Below are positions 29,360-37,168 of a DNA stretch of 64,000 nt, in pieces. The notes below the pieces were generated by a model. That model saw only the letters and a list, made by a program, of their open reading frames with translations, made no database searches and was not told the origin of the DNA. How positions within the stretch are numbered: the stretch's first letter is position 1; every line of letters starts with the position of its first letter. The translations under genes and the position numbers were made by a program. The stretch covers positions 744,001 to 808,000 of the forward strand of contig NW_027191405.1 in assembly GCF_041146345.1 (NCBI RefSeq). Direction: 5' to 3'. This DNA comes from Neodothiora populina (Eukaryota).

Positions 29360-30464
29360 TCAGAAGACCTCTTCCGTGACACGTCTGCCGTACCACAGAG
29401 ACAACTCATCTTCGCCTGTGTTTGCTTCCTCGTCGTCATACATGTAGAAGCTTGTGAGTTTCATCGAGTCCTCGTCGTCCTCTACGGTAGGCCAGGTCAC
29501 CTTTGCGCCAGATTTAGAATCCAGCAAATCCTTTGTTGTAGACCAACTGTAACGACACTCAGTACCCCAGCCAAAGTGCGGATCCATGTTGTGCTTTAGC
29601 CAGCTAGAGCAACGAGCATCACTAGGATAACCGGAGCCCCAGCCAGCTGCCGGGTGCTCAGGAAGCGCCTTCTTTGCACGAGCATCGTCACGAGCTACAG
29701 CTTCCTTGAAGTTGTCGTACTCAACGTCAAGCGCAGCATCTCTGCTTACCTTGGCGCAAACACTCGCTGCGGATACACAAGGATACAAAGAATCAGCCTT
29801 TTTGGCAACAGTGATGTTGACCGTGGGGAAGATGCGCTCGAGCTTCCTCTGATAAGTAGCCGGCTGACCGATGGTGTCGATGTAGATTTCCTTGACATTG
29901 ACACCCTGGGCAAAGACCTGCTTGATCAGATCGATCGTGGCGTCCATTGCCTGGGCATTCAGATTGTACATCGCTGTGGGTCTCAATTGGGCAGATGATA
30001 TGTCCCTTGCTGACATGACGCGAGTCGCCCAGCCACAAGAACGAAAGAGATCCGTTCCCGGGGTGCAGATGGCCTGCATCAAGGATGAACGGAATGCTGG
30101 AGTGAGAACTTTGGAGTCGTCAAAGTGATGAGTGTCTGCCAGTAGAGAGCGGTGCATTGATATGGGCAAATAGTACAAGCCATACACCATAGGTCCTATG
30201 ATGCTCAGATCAGGAACAGTACAAGTCAGTGGCAGAGGCACACCACATACCTAACACAGGGCCTCTTCCAGCTTCGTCAACACCCAGAACACACTCGGTA
30301 GACATGTCTGCCTTGACCACTTCTGGCACATCGGACATGTGAGTGTAAGATGTGCCAGCCAATATTGGCTCTTTCTTGACTGAAGGAGGCACAAAAACAT
30401 TGTCGATTGGGGTTTCCTGGGCGATGTCCTGAGACTCGTTGACTTCTTCCATTGGTTCGTCCAT
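29360..30464 (-). CDS. RNH201: Ribonuclease H2 catalytic subunit A (2 exons)
   Basis: LGVDEAGRGPVLGPMVY, DDSKVL, YIDTIG, KKADSLYPCVSAASVCAKV, GSGYPSD. Confidence 0.95.
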
Positions 30465-30892: not shown

Positions 30893-33800
30893 ATGGCGTC
30901 AACAAGATTGACCCCCGGTCGGCGACGACACAATAATCTGAAAGAAAACATGTATTTTGAACCAGGAAAGCAGGGACGGTACGCGCCATACACTTGATCA
31001 AGCGAAGCAAGAAAGCTGGGAAGGAGCGCAAGCGATTCTGACTTCGGTGGTGACAGACGAACGGGCATCACCCTCAAAGATACAGGCGTACGCGACGAAT
31101 ACGGCCTCGAGCCCGTCAGCGGCATCTTCTCTTCGCCGATACCAACACCTCAGCGCTCTTCACAGCGTAAGCGCGGAAACGCTAGTGTAGAGGTCGAAAA
31201 TGGTAAATATCAGACATCCAGGAACTCTGTGCTGACTTGGCCTCGCTTCATCGATGGCTATATATTGTGAATGGCTAACATTGACATGTTGCTATAGCTG
31301 CTGCCACACAGACTACCGAGACTCTCAACTTGCGCAAGACACCTCATCTCCCACCGAAGACGCAGACTCCCAGACACACCAATATAGGTGGTTCTCCTGT
31401 ACGACATTCTTCTGTGCGACCCGGATCGCGCCATACTTCTCCACAGCGACCTTTGTCGGCTCAGCCAGACCGGGCGAATCGGAAACTTGACTTCACTAAG
31501 AATGCAAGCAACGTAAGGACGAGCGTCGAACAAAGCCCCAGTCCATTCAAACCAAGACCTGGCAAGGGCCGTAAAAGCATCTTTGAATTCGATGATTCTC
31601 CGGCCAAGAGGACGGGCGATGCTCGGAGTGATTCGGTTGAGCTTGAGAGGACCGTACAGGAAGCACAAGAAGCCATCGATAGCATGATTAGAGATGCGCC
31701 AGAGTCAGAACAGATTGAAATTGATACTACTGCTGTTCAGGTACAGCTCTCCGACAAACAGAACTCTTCAGCCTATCCGCATTCGCCTTCGGACGGCCCA
31801 TCTTCAAATCAGAAACGCAAACGAGGAAACCCCAGGACTTCTCAGATTGGCAAAGTAGAGTCAACGCTCCAGCCCGAACCCGATCAGAAGCGTCGGAAAT
31901 CATACGCTCGGGAAGCACCATCTGAGCCGACTAACATCGATGAGACGCTCGCCGAGACGACAGTGAACGAGCCGGAGGAGACAGAATATACGACCGTCGG
32001 AGCCACAGCCATCGACGAAACTCACGCGGATCATACCGAATACACAATTGCGAATCATACCGCCTATACAGCCGCAGACCCTACAGAATACACTACTGCA
32101 GAGCCAGAGCAAACCATTGTCGACCTTACCCAATATGCAGCGACCGAGCAGAGTGAACTTACCGAACAGTCGATCGAAGATACCGCGATGCCTGATGAGT
32201 CCATGGCCGAGACCGAGTTACCGATCGAATCACCGACGGTCACCAAGGCGAAGAAAATTCAACAGTCACACTCTCCACAACGAGTTCTATCCAGGCATCA
32301 ATCGGAGGACGATGACAGAAGTGTTGAAGATTTTGTGCCACCCCCCGAATCCGACCATGAGCCGGAGCCGGTACAAGAAAAGGCGCAACCGAAGCCGGGC
32401 AAGCGTGGACCACCCGCCAAGGCAGCATCACAAAAGAAGAAGTCACAACAGCCGAAGAAACCTGTCGAGGATCCGGGTTCAGACGATTCGCAAGGCAACA
32501 AACGAAAGGGTCCGAAATCCATAGTGACTCTACGTGCTGGGACACCCCAGGAAGAAGACGGAGCAACACAGACGCGATCAGGACGAACATCTATCAAACC
32601 GCTCAAATATTGGTGCAACGAGTCTTTCATATGGCGCCATGGCGAAGTTGACGGTGTGGTCCGCGCAGAACCGCTCGACGAGCCGAAGCAACCTTCACGA
32701 GCGCGAGGCAGACCGAAGAAGAAGTCCAAGGAACTGTCATCGATCAAGGAAGACGAGGAAGAGGCAGACGAAGATCTGTTACCTGAAGCCTGGGAAGACG
32801 AACTGGGTGTGATTAATGGGCGTGTCAGAACTTGGGACGCAGAGGTAGGGGCCGGCAACCCCGACGACGAGGTCCACGAAGGTAAGCGCGTTTGCAGCTC
32901 TACTCATGATTTGAACGATCTCACTGACGGCGTTCTAGATATTGCATTCGCATCGACGGCGATCGCTACGCGCGACGTACAAGGCTCAGCTTTTCGCTAC
33001 GCCAAAGTCATGACGATGCCCTTTTTCGGGGCAGGCATGGTCGAGGTACCTCCAGAAGGCTTCAAGCGAATCAAAAACTCGCGGAAGATGCAGATGATAT
33101 TCTTTGTGCACGAAGGCAAAGTCACGGTCGAGGTTGGAGACATCAAATTTGGCATGTCCAAAGGCGGCGTTTGGCAGGTCCCAAGAGGTATGTTGCAACA
33201 CGTCATTATTTTGTATTTTGCTTTTTTCCTTTGCGCTGCACCTCCCCTCTTATTCGCAATGTATCACTATTCCTGGTCAACGTTCCTTTAACCACCGACT
33301 TGAAAGGCGGTGTCTCACCGCCACGACGACGACAACGAACCTCAGGTGCGCAAAGCGGGAGCTGGCTCCTGTGACACGGGAGTGGTTGCAGATTGCCTGT
33401 TTGGTGCAGCTCGTGTCTCATCGAACTGCACCGAACCTCAGAATTTGTGCGACAATCCGGGGTACGGAGAAATCATTGCGAACGAAGGTTCATCGTTCGA
33501 CCGACCCACCTCATCCGCACGCAAGCATGCATGCGTGCATGTCCTGTACTATGCAGGGCGACCAAGAATACGTGGCTCCAACGGATTGGTTCCGAGATTC
33601 TGGAGCCGTGGTTCTCAGCGACTTTTCTCCGGCCTATTTGCAATTACCGGACGCTGCACGTTGCTGGGCGCTGAGTCGGGTATTGCCCCTTACCACCCCG
33701 TGAGATCCCGTCCAACCTTAACGGAGCGTCCTCTTCGTCTGGATTCGGTGGTAATTTCTCATGTCGCCTACAGCTGTCCAACCTGCGTAAACGGGCGGGG

Positions 33801-34045
33801 CAGCGGAGGGGGTTGCCCGACCGGAATCACGTTTGACCCTCGCACATCTTTTCCGTTTTCTATACTATTTCCCCTTTCGGCTTTAGCTCAGGTCTGTGCG
33901 GACTTCCAATGCTGACCCTATACTCCGTACACTAGGTAATAACTACGCCATCCTGAACGAAAGCAAGCGCCACGTCGCCAAGATTTTCTTTGCACAGGGC
34001 TGTGAGCTGGAGGCTGGTGTGTACGACGCGGGACCCTCTGCTTGA
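30893..34045 (+). CDS. MIF2: Inner kinetochore protein Mif2/CENP-C (5 exons)
   Basis: Mif2_N GRRTGITLKDTGVRDEYGLEP...IFSSP; CENP-C motif TRSGRTSIKPLKYW.NE; cupin domain KNSRKMQMIFFVHEGKV...WQVPR|GNNYAILNE...IFFAQG completed by the exon at 33936. Confidence 0.93.
33291..33819 (+). ncRNA. Candidate structured intronic RNA element of unknown class in the last MIF2 intron
   Basis: At least 10 helices found by eye, enclosed by accaccga(33291-98)/tcggtggt(33745-52). Several G-U pairs favour the + strand. Confidence 0.6.
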
Positions 34046-35630
34046 ATAACAAATGCCACCACTGTGGCTCCTAGCCACCACCACCGCTATAGGCAGGCAA
34101 ATAGCGGCACTATAATATGTTCTATTACACTTTTATGACGTTAAAGGTTTTTTTCTCCCTGTGGCCGACCCGGAAATATATCTAGTCAAGTATTAGGCAC
34201 TGATTACTCCGAATACACCCGCTTATATGTTCACTCTTCCGACGAGTCATTCTGGATGCTTGTAACGGACCGAATCGAAAGTCCACCGCGGGTTGAGAAG
34301 TAGTCTTGCTATAGTGTGCTCCCCTTTCCCCATCTGCCACCAAGACAATGTGCCGGACCAAGCAACGCTTCACGATCGGCAATGACTCGTCGTATGACCA
34401 TTGTCCCATTGAGGAAGAGCAGCGACCTCATAGCTGTCGGATGCGGGAACCCATGCACTTCTTGGTAAAGCCGTTTGGTCAATGAGATTAAGTACATCGC
34501 AGAGATCAGAAATCGAAGCTAAACCACTCGCCCGCAAGGAAACTCTACTTGGCGACATTGTGACCAAGTCTCTGTCGGTCGCCGCGGGACCTACGCACAC
34601 CCACACGCTTGTACATAGCAACAGTAGTTCTTGTGTCCCCTTCTTAGTGTCCTTGGATTGCGACATAATTTGTAAAGCAGAGAGACCAAGGGTCCCGTTC
34701 ACGAGCAAGGTCGGCAGTACCATACTTCGTCACAGATACCGTACCGTCCTTTTCCTTCTTCAACAAGAGGGTGTGGAGAAAGTCTTTCGTGCGTACTGTA
34801 ATCATTTCGTAGATACAATGGCTCTTGCTGCCAATCTTACTCGATAATTCATGTGGCTATGGTACAGTACAACGGCCTGGCTCTGGTCGACTGATCTTCT
34901 AGTTCATCTGCGAAGAAGGTAGCATTGTACGCGGCTTTTTTCCCTGTCTTTGGATCGATGTAAGATACATGTTGGTGATCAGAAGACGCTTTAGGGAGGG
35001 ACCGTCGATCTTGTGGTTTCGTCGCTAAGCTTATTTCTTGTTCGATCGGGCTTCGTAGTCACTCGGACGTTCTCTCGTGTAGTTATACCTACTTCGAATA
35101 ATAAGGTAGGGAATCCCCCCTTTGACCCTTTCTTGAAGTGCATACAGTACATGTATGCATACTGCATTTGTACACCCTCTTGTTTTGCCCTACTTAGCCT
35201 CCTTAACTTCGATGGCGCTTACTAGTGCTCTAGCATACCACGTGTCTCGAAGAGCTTGACTGTCACAAGGTTGGTGGCACTATGTGTGCTGTTAGCGCTA
35301 TTGTTATCATAGATGATCAGTTTTGAGTTCTCGCAAACAACAAAACTTTCCACACAACCACACACACACACATGGACGCCACTCTCGAATCTGGTCCTCC
35401 TGTGGCCTACTTGGTTCTGCAAACTATCCTTGATGATACTGCAAATTCGTGCTATTTGCGCCATCCGGTTTGAACCATTGATTAGCACTCTTTGCTCCTC
35501 TTTGGTCCTTGATTCTCGCGAACTGCTGTAATCCCCAGCCTCCCGTATACACACATGTACTCACACACTTACCTGGGATCTGTACATCCGCGATCACCCT
35601 CCAATGTCTGTCTTAACATCTCATCGCAGC

Positions 35631-37168
35631 TTAGAACTCCCCATCGTCATCACTGCCGAATTCATCCACAACTTCAAAGTCGCCTACTTCGATGCGCTCC
35701 GGTCTCACAAACACACCGCTATTGGGCGCACACTCGAAGTAGCGTGTCTTCTTTCCCTCAGAACCCGCCCCCGCAATGCTACCGTCGTTCTTGCCCGTTG
35801 GTTCATCAAGGGCAACCCCGATCCATTGGCCCAATCCAGGGATCTCGGTGACCTCGCCTATGTACTTGACGGTTCCCCTACGTGCGTCTGTAGAGGCGGG
35901 GAGGAGTTGGCAACGAGCGCCAATCTTGATGCCTGTTAGGGGAAACCAAATAAGTCAGCCAGTTATTCATTCACCGAAATGAGCAGCCAGGTGAATGTAG
36001 GGTAAGCTTAGCGAGCAAGCATTGAAATGTGTGGAAGCAGTATAGAACCGTTCGTGGTCGCGCTTGGTGATCTTGATAAGAACTTTGTGGTGAGGCTCGT
36101 TCGGACGGTCACGATGGAGATGCATGGGTCCGACACGTGGATATCAATGCAGCTAGGCAGAAATCAATCTGTACACTGTAGAGTGCGATGACTGCTTTGC
36201 GTATTTGGAGATACATACCCCTTTCTTCGATTTCTCGCTGGACGGCGGCAATCTTCTTCTGCTCGATCGAGGGAGCATTTGGGTTGAAACGGCCAATTTT
36301 ATGAGCTCGCTTGTAGGCCAGGACACTATCGGTACGAGACTCATACTCGTCGGCTGGCATTTCATATTTCTGGATTCCCGATACGTCGTTATAGTTTTGC
36401 CGCAGACCTGGCGGACGGGTATCTGAAACCTAAGTTTGCATAGGGCCATCAGTATCATCGCAAGTGTGAAGTAAAGTTGCTGTTGATAATGGACAGTGCT
36501 CATGCATCTGATAGACAAGGATCGATCGCCGTACAACATCATGCCAGGCGGAATCGTGCGCCACAGCTGCCATGTCGTGCTTGTCTTCTGCATGATGTGG
36601 TGGTCGGTCTTCGTGAATCCCGTCTTGTGCCGACTGTGAAACTCAGCCGAGAGGGGGACATATATCCTATCATTCATATTCGACAAGCATCAAGATAGTG
36701 TCCGTCGTATGTGTTGAACCTAGAAGATAGCCAAGGTCTGAGGTTGGCGAGCCGTCTCAACAGCAAGGCATAGAAGCCGACATGTTACTTTGCCCTGGAG
36801 TTTCAACATCCCTGACTCCACGTTTGTACTCATTTCAACGTATCTCCATCCGCATGTAGGCTATGCATGTGTGGGAATTTGGAGTGCATGGATCAATCAT
36901 GGAAAGGCATAGAATCAGCACTCACATGAATTTCCGCATAAGCTTGTAGTGGATAATTGTTCAGCTGCACACTGGCTTCATTTTCTGATTGTAGGGGCTG
37001 AGCAGGCCATGATGAAACCTTCAATGATAGGCTCTGAGCAGATGCAGGTATGCCTGTGATAGGCTCCAATCGATCTTTGAGATGGGCGATCGTCCACGAG
37101 GGGGAGATCCGACGCTCCGACCGTGCGTTCTCCGATATAATAAGAAGGGGAATGTCCTGGGCCGACAT
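35631..37168 (-). CDS. TBCB: Tubulin folding cofactor B (Alp11/Alf1; UBL + CAP-Gly; 3 exons)
   Basis: SERRISPSWTIAHLKDRLEPITGIP; VSDTRPP; YESRTDSVLAYKR..KIGRF; CAP-Gly RGTVKYIG, WIGVALDEPTGKNDGS, RYFEC...GVFVRP. Confidence 0.93.

What the first reader, a model, noticed from the sequence alone, without database searches (positions are those of the whole stretch)
33188..33935. 748-nt intron in the CENP-C cupin domain carries a large, nested RNA structure of unknown class
Seen: the intron (GTATGT 33188 ... GCTGAC ... CTAG 33935) is about ten times the typical 50-90 nt introns here. An outer helix accaccga(33291-98)/tcggtggt(33745-52) closes nested long-range helices gcggga(33355)/tcccgt(33706) and cggggt(33458)/accccg(33695). 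Local hairpins inside: ggcggtg/caccgcc (33306-22), ctcctgt/acgggag (33366-82), gtttggtgcag/ctgcaccgaac (33399-436, within gttgca/tgcgac), cgaacga/tcgttcg (33479-99), gcacgca/tgcgtgc (33517-38), gtcctgta/tgcagggc (33541-59), tggctcca/tggagccg (33573-608) and tccgg/ccgga. A further hairpin, gggcagc/gttgccc (33798-818), lies downstream. GTGTCTCA recurs at two hairpin tips. I found no RNase P/MRP, snRNA, hammerhead or telomerase-template signature. Known: the cupin mediates CENP-C dimerisation, and CENP-C proteins are reported to bind RNA. Inference: a cis-regulatory splicing element (possibly autoregulatory or meiotic) or an intron-released ncRNA.
Basis: partly seen in the sequence, partly recalled or inferred. 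Interest (0 to 1): 0.9.

Follow-up and report, generated by a model that had tools for sequence, protein, structure and literature searches.

The report
Long CENP-C intron with conserved motif
The last intron of a fungal kinetochore gene (CENP-C/Mif2) is really ten times the usual length and is full of small hairpins, but it is not one large folded RNA; relatives keep only its length and a short sequence motif, which hints at an unstudied splicing signal.

Summary
The 748-nt intron (33188-33935, GT..AG) is real: a contig from the source sample joins the exons exactly. Its local hairpins are real and unusually dense: 5 perfect stems of 7 bp or more, the highest density in the 64-kb window. The three long-range helices that would make a "nested" fold occur at chance frequency and have base-pair probability 0.00. 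Fold energy beats shuffles on both strands (z -3.2 and -3.7). Against GC-matched windows of this DNA it ranks only 6 of 425. Rfam finds nothing.

The protein matches a Neodothiora populina record. In 79 related loci from metagenomes the intron sits at the same codon position. It is 45-78 nt in distant fungi and 200-660 nt in 33 loci, including rows grouping with Aureobasidium and Cladosporium. The interiors are unalignable between lineages, and the closest relative lacks nearly all of the window's hairpins. An 8-mer, UGUGCGAC, survives on the sense strand in 8 of 20 lineages and only in the long introns.

Best reading: an anciently expanded intron with a small conserved cis-acting core. It is not a new class of RNA. 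Its function is unproven.

The parts
30950..34045 (+). CENP-C/Mif2 gene (ATG 30950, stop 34043-34045), with four introns: 30979-31056, 31203-31297, 32882-32938 and 33188-33935
   Evidence: Alignment with the 705-aa protein P0001, which carries PF15624 and PF11699. Sequence. The last two introns are confirmed by the spliced contig.
33188..33935 (+). 748-nt phase-1 spliceosomal intron that splits the cupin between VPR-G and NNYAILNES. It has GTATGT at the 5' end, the branch site GCTGAC at 33911-33916 and AG at 33934-33935.
   Evidence: The same position is occupied in 66 of the 67 related loci in which both exons were found.
33306..33322 (+). Hairpin H1, GGCGGTG-TCT-CACCGCC. The GCGGTG(T) element recurs in related long introns.
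   Evidence: Base-pair probability 0.99. The pattern GCGGT..ACCGC is found in the window, in 4 Aureobasidium-like introns and in 6 Cladosporium-like introns. GGCGGTGT is shared with L015 and L056.
33385..33453 (+). Candidate helix H2, GTTGCA (33385-33390) with TGCGAC (33448-33453), enclosing the 11-bp hairpin 33399-33436
   Evidence: The same arm pair occurs in L015 and in 5 Cladosporium-like introns. Its third pair is U.G in most, C-G in L049 and U-A in L047. In the window its base-pair probability is only 0.06, and a covariance model built from the relatives does not recover it.
33446..33453 (+). Conserved sense-strand 8-mer TGTGCGAC (UGUGCGAC in RNA)
   Evidence: The 9-mer TTGTGCGAC that contains it occurs once in the 64-kb window. 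The 8-mer is present in 8 of 20 intron lineages, against a maximum of 6 for any 8-mer in 200 dinucleotide shuffles. Twenty of 31 matches in the 79 loci lie on the + strand inside this intron. It is present exactly in 11 of 16 distinct related introns of 377 nt or more, and in 0 of 35 of 316 nt or less.
33366..33608 (+). Lineage-specific local hairpins: 33366-33382, 33399-33436, 33479-33499, 33517-33538, 33541-33559 and 33573-33608
   Evidence: Base-pair probabilities 0.62-0.99. No counterparts in L015.

Best explanation
This is an old spliceosomal intron at a fixed position in the CENP-C cupin. In an ancestor of a large part of the Dothideomycetes it grew from about 50 nt to several hundred nt and has mostly stayed long since. 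Most of the interior is fast-evolving spacer. In this species the spacer happens to be packed with short, thermodynamically stable local hairpins. It does not fold into one conserved, nested RNA. What is conserved is small: the sense-strand motif UGUGCGAC and a nearby GCGGUG(U) element, both often placed in or beside hairpins, and both resembling 5' splice sites (G|GUGNG.., GUGCGA). I infer that these act on the pre-mRNA as a cis-acting signal that influences how, or how efficiently, this long intron is removed. It could be a bound or masked pseudo-5' splice site, or a protein-binding site. Such a signal would limit or tune the output of full-length, dimerisation-competent CENP-C. Shown here: splicing, position, length distribution, hairpin density, lack of a global fold, and motif conservation. 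Inferred: that the motif acts at the RNA level, and that it affects splicing.
For: Splicing is exact. The intron position is shared, and its length is 45-78 nt in 29 loci, 99-121 nt in 4 and 200-660 nt in 33; one locus has no intron (67 loci with both exons). Loci with long introns group with named Aureobasidium, Cladosporium and Teratosphaeria/Hortaea proteins. Truncated loci whose introns run beyond the contig group with Zasmidium and Zymoseptoria. The interiors give no blastn, nhmmer or tblastx match between lineages.

The motif TGTGCGAC is in 8 of 20 lineages, against a shuffle maximum of 6 in 200 trials. Twenty of 31 matches in about 330 kb of loci lie on the sense strand of this intron. 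It occurs only in introns of 377 nt or more: exact in 11 of 16, within one mismatch in 14 of 16, against 0 of 35 shorter ones. Anchors in the same order are shared with the closest relative: GGCGGTGT, GTGGTTGCA, TTGTGCGAC and AATACGTGGC. That pair shares 13 words of 8 nt or more, against a null mean of 4.7 and maximum of 12.

Consensus folding of two lineage alignments is better than column shuffles on the sense strand (z -3.0 and -3.6) and less so on the antisense strand (z -1.7 in both). The U.G pair in H2 works only in the sense RNA.
Against: No experiment or RNA data bears on function. The motif's predicted pairing partners differ from species to species, and in the window its pairing probability equals the intron average of 0.60. 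A covariance model of the relatives' H2 hairpin does not find the window's H2 (8.4 bits, E 3.3). Structure conservation indices are low (0.45 and 0.25), and compensatory pairs are not clearly above shuffled alignments: 23 against a mean of 14 and maximum of 22, and 5 against a mean of 10.7. Some fairly close relatives have only 61-63 nt at this site (L003, L006), so the long interior is dispensable in some lineages. Two Aureobasidium-like introns (L013, L020) lack the motif. Identity between two Aureobasidium-like introns (30-75% per 40 nt) is only modestly above that of their 3' flank (32-60%). The motif was found by searching, so its strand bias could equally reflect an oriented DNA site.
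Confidence: 0.5

Rival explanations
1. Neutral long intron. An ancient expansion simply has not yet been deleted. The hairpins arise from mutational processes such as small palindromic duplications or template switching. The 8-mer is a leftover or a by-product, and nothing here has a function.
For: The interior turns over completely between lineages. Some lineages are down to 61-121 nt. Hairpin richness is specific to this species: 6.7 per kb here against 1.80 per kb in orthologous long introns and 1.23 per kb in their surroundings. Fold energy is not an outlier against the genome background. Folding brings the 5' splice site and the branch point no closer than random interiors do: 10-12 steps against 17.4 +/- 8.1 and 15.6 +/- 4.6.
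Against: Introns of 400-750 nt persist in lineages so diverged that their sequences no longer align, in genomes whose other introns in this gene are 57-95 nt. An exact 8-mer kept in 8 of 20 otherwise unalignable lineages, on one strand only, is not expected from neutral decay.
Confidence: 0.25
2. DNA-level element. The conserved motif is an oriented binding site for a transcription or chromatin factor inside the gene, and the hairpins are incidental.
For: The hairpins are perfect palindromes that fold equally well on both strands. The motif has no consistent RNA pairing context.
Against: The strand bias of the motif and the better sense-strand consensus folding lean towards RNA. No known site was matched; I only recalled candidate sites and tested none.
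Confidence: 0.12
3. One reading: the intron forms one large nested RNA fold of a new class and may be released as a stable non-coding RNA.
For: Fold energy is 3 sd better than shuffles. There are many stable local hairpins. No known family explains it.
Against: The closing helices have probability 0.00 and occur at chance frequency. The antisense strand folds as well. The hairpins are not conserved in the closest relative. Structure conservation indices in relatives are low. No block of 10-20 nt is conserved across orders, as a snoRNA or another trans-acting RNA would show.
Confidence: 0.06
4. A mobile-element relic: an introner-like element or MITE that inserted here.
For: The intron is longer than regular introns and has a stable predicted fold, as described for introner-like elements (PMC3609843, passages read). 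The organism belongs to the class in which those elements were found.
Against: The intron position is ancient and shared with fungi that have a 45-78-nt intron there. There is no second copy in the 64-kb window. Only one record of the genome-like run X1 lay on the stretch at 80% likeness or more. Anchors inside the GC-rich core are shared with relatives. There are no terminal inverted repeats beyond chance 8-mers. An insertion into the pre-existing intron in a distant ancestor cannot be excluded.
Confidence: 0.05

Closest known systems
Long structured introns of budding yeast, where intron folding aids splicing and some conserved intronic structures regulate their host gene (recalled from the literature; no paper on this was read here)
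   Same: A spliceosomal intron far longer than the genome norm, with stable local structure between the 5' splice site and the branch point. Folding reduces the 721-nt separation to about 10-12 steps.
   Different: The shortening is no better than for shuffled interiors. No specific pairing between the 5' splice site region and the branch point region is conserved. The host is a kinetochore gene. No regulatory protein is known.
Introner-like elements of Dothideomycetes (PMC3609843, passages read)
   Same: Same fungal class. Longer than regular introns. Lower predicted folding energy than shuffles.
   Different: Those elements occur in hundreds of near-identical copies, are about twice the normal intron length, and mark newly gained intron positions. 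This intron is single-copy as far as could be tested, about ten times the normal length, and sits at an ancient position.
Conserved alternative or 'poison' splice signals used for dosage control by unproductive splicing (general principle, recalled)
   Same: Short conserved sequences that resemble 5' splice sites inside an otherwise unconserved intron. Retaining the intron, or using an internal donor, would hit a stop codon after 34 codons (33289-33291).
   Different: No alternative isoform was seen; the one RNA-like contig shows only the productive splice. This link is inference.

Membership tests
Introner-like element (ILE) | Many near-identical copies in the same genome | tested here: not met
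   There is no other copy in the 64-kb window. Only 1 record of the genome-like run X1 lay on the 1801-nt stretch at 80% likeness or more. No whole genome was available, so the test is incomplete.
Introner-like element (ILE) | Marks a recently gained intron position | tested here: not met
   The same phase-1 position is occupied in 66 of the 67 related loci with both exons, including distant ones with 45-78-nt introns.
Introner-like element (ILE) | Longer than regular introns, with a stable predicted fold | tested here: met
   748 nt against 57-95 nt for the gene's other introns. z -3.2 against shuffles.
Any Rfam family (snoRNA, RNase P/MRP, snRNA, riboswitch, ribozyme and others) | A covariance-model match | tested here: not met
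   0 matches at E up to 10 in 32800-34400. 0 at gathering score in the whole window. 0 at gathering score in 20 related loci.
Intron-hosted snoRNA | Box C/D or H/ACA motifs and a guide segment conserved across species | tested here: inconclusive
   There is no Rfam match and no block longer than about 10 nt shared between lineages. I saw no TGATGA by eye in the intron. No dedicated snoRNA finder was run.
MITE or other DNA transposon | Terminal inverted repeats with a target-site duplication, and multiple copies | tested here: not met
   Only 8-nt inverted repeats at chance frequency. Single copy. Anchors inside the core are shared with relatives.
Conserved structured RNA (by RNAz-like criteria) | A consensus fold better than shuffled alignments, a high structure conservation index, and covariation | tested here: inconclusive
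   On two alignments of relatives, z is -3.0 and -3.6 on the sense strand against -1.7 on the antisense strand. However, the structure conservation index is 0.45 and 0.25, and compensatory pairs are not clearly above shuffles (raw counts). The window's own sequence cannot be aligned to either set.
Stwintron or nested intron | An internal intron that interrupts a splice signal of the outer intron | not tested
   I only inspected by eye for internal donor, branch and acceptor sets. Two CTCAG|GT sites (33341 and 33887) are about what chance gives by my arithmetic.
tRNA or tRNA-like gene | A cloverleaf found by ARAGORN | tested here: not met
   0 genes in 33000-34200.

The most novel reading that the evidence does not exclude
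The last intron of CENP-C carries a cis-acting RNA signal conserved across much of the Dothideomycetes. It consists of UGUGCGAC with a GCGGUG element, presented by variable hairpins, and it has kept this intron 5-10 times longer than normal over a long evolutionary span. The signal would gate productive splicing of the exon that completes the dimerisation cupin, which would set the dosage of the kinetochore scaffold. Such a post-transcriptional control of a centromere protein has not been described in fungi.
Probability: 0.2. Interest if true: 0.7.

Novelty: new variant of a known kind. Interest (0 to 1): 0.4.

Why it matters
CENP-C dosage matters for building kinetochores, and the exon after this intron completes the domain through which the protein dimerises. 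Fungi in this class have very short introns and tend to lose excess intron sequence. An intron that stays several hundred nucleotides long in several orders and keeps one short strand-specific motif is therefore a concrete, cheap target for mutation in tractable relatives such as Aureobasidium or Zymoseptoria. It could reveal splicing-level control of a centromere protein. If the test is negative, the case becomes a clean example of how a hairpin-rich intron can look like a designed RNA without being one. A practical point also follows: several public protein models of this gene mishandle the intron.

Tried and rejected
- Whole-genome search for copies: no genome is held for this window.
- Earlier notes of this scan: nothing relevant.
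- RNA evidence: no RNA holder was listed. Run X2, labelled 'DNA?', holds the spliced form and so behaves like RNA. No intron-derived contig was seen in X2, and the tool warns that a hole proves nothing.
- Runs X3 and X4 (another organism label and study) hold pieces 100% identical to 33648-33823, 33457-33532 and 33525-33634, with unlike flanks. I first read this as a mosaic. The break points coincide with CCGG sites and a GCATGC site in the sequence, so I take them to be restriction-fragment libraries with chimeric joins. I drew no biological conclusion from them.
- Between-lineage searches with blastn, nhmmer and tblastx gave nothing for the window's intron.
- Coding potential: the + strand has a 203-codon open frame and 300 nt without any stop triplet. 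Stretches like this occur elsewhere in the window (342, 288 and 284 nt), and no peptide-level conservation exists.
- A covariance model (R1) of the relatives' H2 hairpin failed to recover the window's H2. A MAFFT alignment that included L015 misplaced its 3' arm, so I did not use it.
- The recursive-splicing, pseudo-branch-point, RFX, Whi3 and Pol III box ideas were considered from memory only. I dropped them for lack of consistent spacing or of enrichment above chance.
- The bacterial promoter and terminator scan is irrelevant here and empty.
- Literature: a search for 'Mif2', 'intron' and 'Dothideomycetes' listed nothing on this intron (listing and abstract starts only). A second search failed on term syntax and was not repeated.
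Full report
WHAT IS THERE

The window carries a CENP-C/Mif2 gene on the + strand, from ATG 30950 to the stop at 34043-34045. Its best database match is a 705-aa protein named 'hypothetical protein AAFC00_005251 [Neodothiora populina]' with Pfam PF15624 and PF11699. In the alignment it is identical to the window's translation apart from the 57-nt intron that I read through. That alignment and the sequence give four introns: 30979-31056 (78 nt), 31203-31297 (95 nt), 32882-32938 (57 nt) and 33188-33935 (748 nt).

The 748-nt intron begins with GTATGT. Its branch site GCTGAC lies at 33911-33916, and it ends with AG at 33934-33935. It splits the cupin in phase 1, between VPR-G and NNYAILNES. A 2506-nt contig of run X2 comes from the same sample as the probable source run.

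CHECK OF THE STRUCTURE CLAIM

RNAfold gives -251.6 kcal/mol with z -3.2 for the sense strand, and -258.8 kcal/mol with z -3.7 for the antisense strand (20 shuffles each). The excess stability is therefore a property of the DNA palindromes and not of one strand.

I compared the intron with 425 overlapping 300-nt windows of the same 64 kb, after regressing MFE on GC. The best intron window (33301-33600) ranks 6th on the + strand (z -1.97) and 41st on the - strand. That is high, but it is not an outlier.

The density of short perfect hairpins does stand out. The intron has 5 stems of 7 bp or more with loops of 3-30 nt, against 80 in the whole window (1.25 per kb). Every 350-nt window with 4 or more such stems lies at 33201-33401. 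Only 1 of 300 mononucleotide shuffles of the intron reaches 5.

The three long-range helices that make the architecture 'nested' have probability 0.00 and contribute no pair to the MFE. The helix gttgca/tgcgac has 0.06, and gggcagc/gttgccc has 0.00. Perfect 8-9-nt inverted repeats are common in this stretch: one search lists seven such pairs among the 25 shown.

Folding reduces the 721-nt separation of the 5' splice site and the branch point to 10 steps in the MFE and 11.9 steps in sampled structures. Shuffled interiors give 17.4 +/- 8.1 and 15.6 +/- 4.6 steps, so this compaction is generic.

Rfam gives no match at E up to 10 around the intron, none at gathering score in the whole window, and none in 20 related loci. 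ARAGORN finds no tRNA.

COPY NUMBER

No second copy exists in the window. Only one record of the genome-like run X1 lay on the 1801-nt stretch at 80% likeness or more. No whole genome was available.

Two runs under another organism label hold pieces that are 100% identical to parts of the intron but have foreign flanks. The break points coincide with CCGG and GCATGC sites in the sequence. I read these as restriction-fragment libraries and draw nothing further from them.

ORTHOLOGOUS INTRONS

A profile of 26 CENP-C proteins found 79 loci in metagenome contigs. Twelve of them lack the downstream exon, mostly because the contig ends too soon. In the other 67, both cupin exons are present:

| Intron at this position | Loci |
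|---|---|
| none (L034) | 1 |
| 45-78 nt | 29 |
| 99-121 nt | 4 |
| 200-660 nt | 33 |

In four of the short cases my extracted boundaries are off by a few bases, because they do not end in AG.

On an 82-residue tree with many unresolved forks, the long introns sit with named Aureobasidium, Cladosporium and Teratosphaeria/Hortaea proteins. Truncated loci whose introns run on past the contig end sit with Zasmidium and Zymoseptoria. Most of the short introns lie in the other half of the tree. However, L003 (61 nt) and L006 (63 nt) lie among the long ones.

Several public protein models read into or through this intron after VPRG. This independently shows the same junction (GGT ATG TT.. read as G-M-F or G-M-L).

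CONSERVATION OF THE INTERIOR

The window's intron has no blastn, nhmmer or tblastx match to any other long intron. The closest relative, L015, is 88% identical in the cupin exon and has a 506-nt intron. It aligns only at short anchors. The two share 13 words of 8 nt or more, against a null mean of 4.7 and a maximum of 12. Four of these lie in the same order: GGCGGTGT, GTGGTTGCA, TTGTGCGAC and AATACGTGGC. The other hairpins of the window have no counterpart there.

Orthologous long introns hold 1.80 perfect hairpins per kb, against 1.23 per kb in the rest of their loci. The window's 6.7 per kb is therefore a peculiarity of its own lineage.

Within two lineages I could align the introns. The Aureobasidium-like set has 4 sequences and the Cladosporium-like set has 6. 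Their consensus folds beat column-shuffled alignments on the sense strand (z -3.0 and -3.6) more than on the antisense strand (z -1.7 in both). However, the structure conservation indices are low (0.45 and 0.25). Compensatory pairs are not clearly above the shuffles: 23 against a mean of 14 and a maximum of 22, and 5 against a mean of 10.7. Identity between two Aureobasidium-like introns is 30-75% per 40 nt, against 32-60% in their 3' flank.

THE CONSERVED CORE

An unbiased count of 8-mers across lineages picks out TGTGCGAC. It is present in 8 of 20 intron lineages, while in 200 dinucleotide shuffles no 8-mer reached more than 6.

In the 79 loci it occurs 31 times, and 20 of those lie on the sense strand inside this intron. 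In the 64-kb window the 9-mer TTGTGCGAC that contains it occurs once, at 33445-33453.

Among distinct related introns it tracks length:

| Intron length | Exact match | Within one mismatch |
|---|---|---|
| 377 nt or more (16 introns) | 11 | 14 |
| 316 nt or less (35 introns) | 0 | 0 |

A second element, GCGGTG(T), forms the 5' arm of a hairpin with CACCGC. The hairpin occurs in the window (33306-33322, probability 0.99), in the Aureobasidium-like set and in the Cladosporium-like set, with loops of 3 to about 45 nt. In the Cladosporium-like set and some other relatives, GCGGTG abuts the 8-mer directly.

In the window, in L015 and in 5 Cladosporium-like introns, the 8-mer can pair with an upstream GGTTGCA. 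The third pair of that helix is U.G in most, C-G in L049 and U-A in L047, and a U.G pair fits only the sense RNA.

This helix is weakly supported otherwise. Its probability in the window is 0.06. Predicted partners of the motif differ between species. A covariance model built from the Cladosporium-like hairpins scores the window region at only 8.4 bits, E 3.3.

Both conserved elements resemble 5' splice sites (G|GUGNG.., GUGCGA; compare the real donors GTGCGT, GTGAGA and GTCAGT listed). That resemblance is my reading, not a test.

INTERPRETATION

The shared position, the shared anchors and the restriction of the motif to long versions indicate that the long state is homologous and old. The other introns of this gene are 57-95 nt. 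A complete turnover of the interior, combined with retention of length and of one strand-specific 8-mer, is best explained by a small cis-acting signal embedded in spacer sequence. I think it most likely acts on the pre-mRNA during removal of this intron, but that step is inferred.

The rivals are a neutral leftover, an oriented DNA site, a released structured RNA, and a mobile-element relic. They are listed with their evidence in the Rival explanations section.

Introner-like elements were described in this fungal class as being present in hundreds of copies and about twice as long as regular introns (PMC3609843, passages read). They do not fit, because this intron is single-copy as far as could be tested and sits at an ancient position.

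VERDICT

The 'large nested RNA structure of unknown class' is not supported.

I found no paper on it in one full-text search (listing only).

I rate the finding as a new variant of a known kind, namely a long structured fungal intron with a conserved cis element, with interest 0.4.

Noticed in passing
related proteins P0004, P0060, P0048, P0027, P0011: Several public CENP-C protein models of Dothideomycetes mishandle this intron. P0004 (Aureobasidium subglaciale) ends inside the intron after VPRG. P0060 (Cladosporium fusiforme) reads about 107 residues of intron in frame before NNYSITNES. P0048, P0027 and P0011 also carry intron-derived residues.
   Followed up: partly
window 34230-35630: About 1.4 kb lies between the end of the CENP-C transcript contig (34230) and the convergent gene with a CAP-Gly domain (ORFs 35631-35954 and 36109-36429 on the - strand, which look like tubulin-folding cofactor B). 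It has no long ORF and no Rfam match.
   Followed up: no
window 33457-33823; runs X3 and X4: Two small runs under another organism label hold pieces 100% identical to the intron with foreign flanks. The break points fall at CCGG and GCATGC sites, so these look like restriction-based reduced-representation libraries with chimeric joins. Given how fast this intron evolves, the same or a nearly identical strain must be in those samples.
   Followed up: partly
L009, L010, L060 introns: A different repeated motif, (G)TCGGTGAGAGAA, occurs once in L009, twice in L010 (plus a GCGGTGAGAGAA variant) and as TCGGTGAGGGAG in L060. It too resembles a 5' splice site.
   Followed up: no
window 33373-33672 and many related long introns: The + strand has 300 nt without any TAA, TAG or TGA. 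Many orthologous long introns have open frames of 100-175 codons on both strands, with no peptide-level similarity between lineages. This is probably compositional.
   Followed up: partly
window 29360-30250 (-): The upstream neighbour on the - strand looks like a ribonuclease H2 catalytic subunit, judged by eye from the ORF translation. It was not searched.
   Followed up: no
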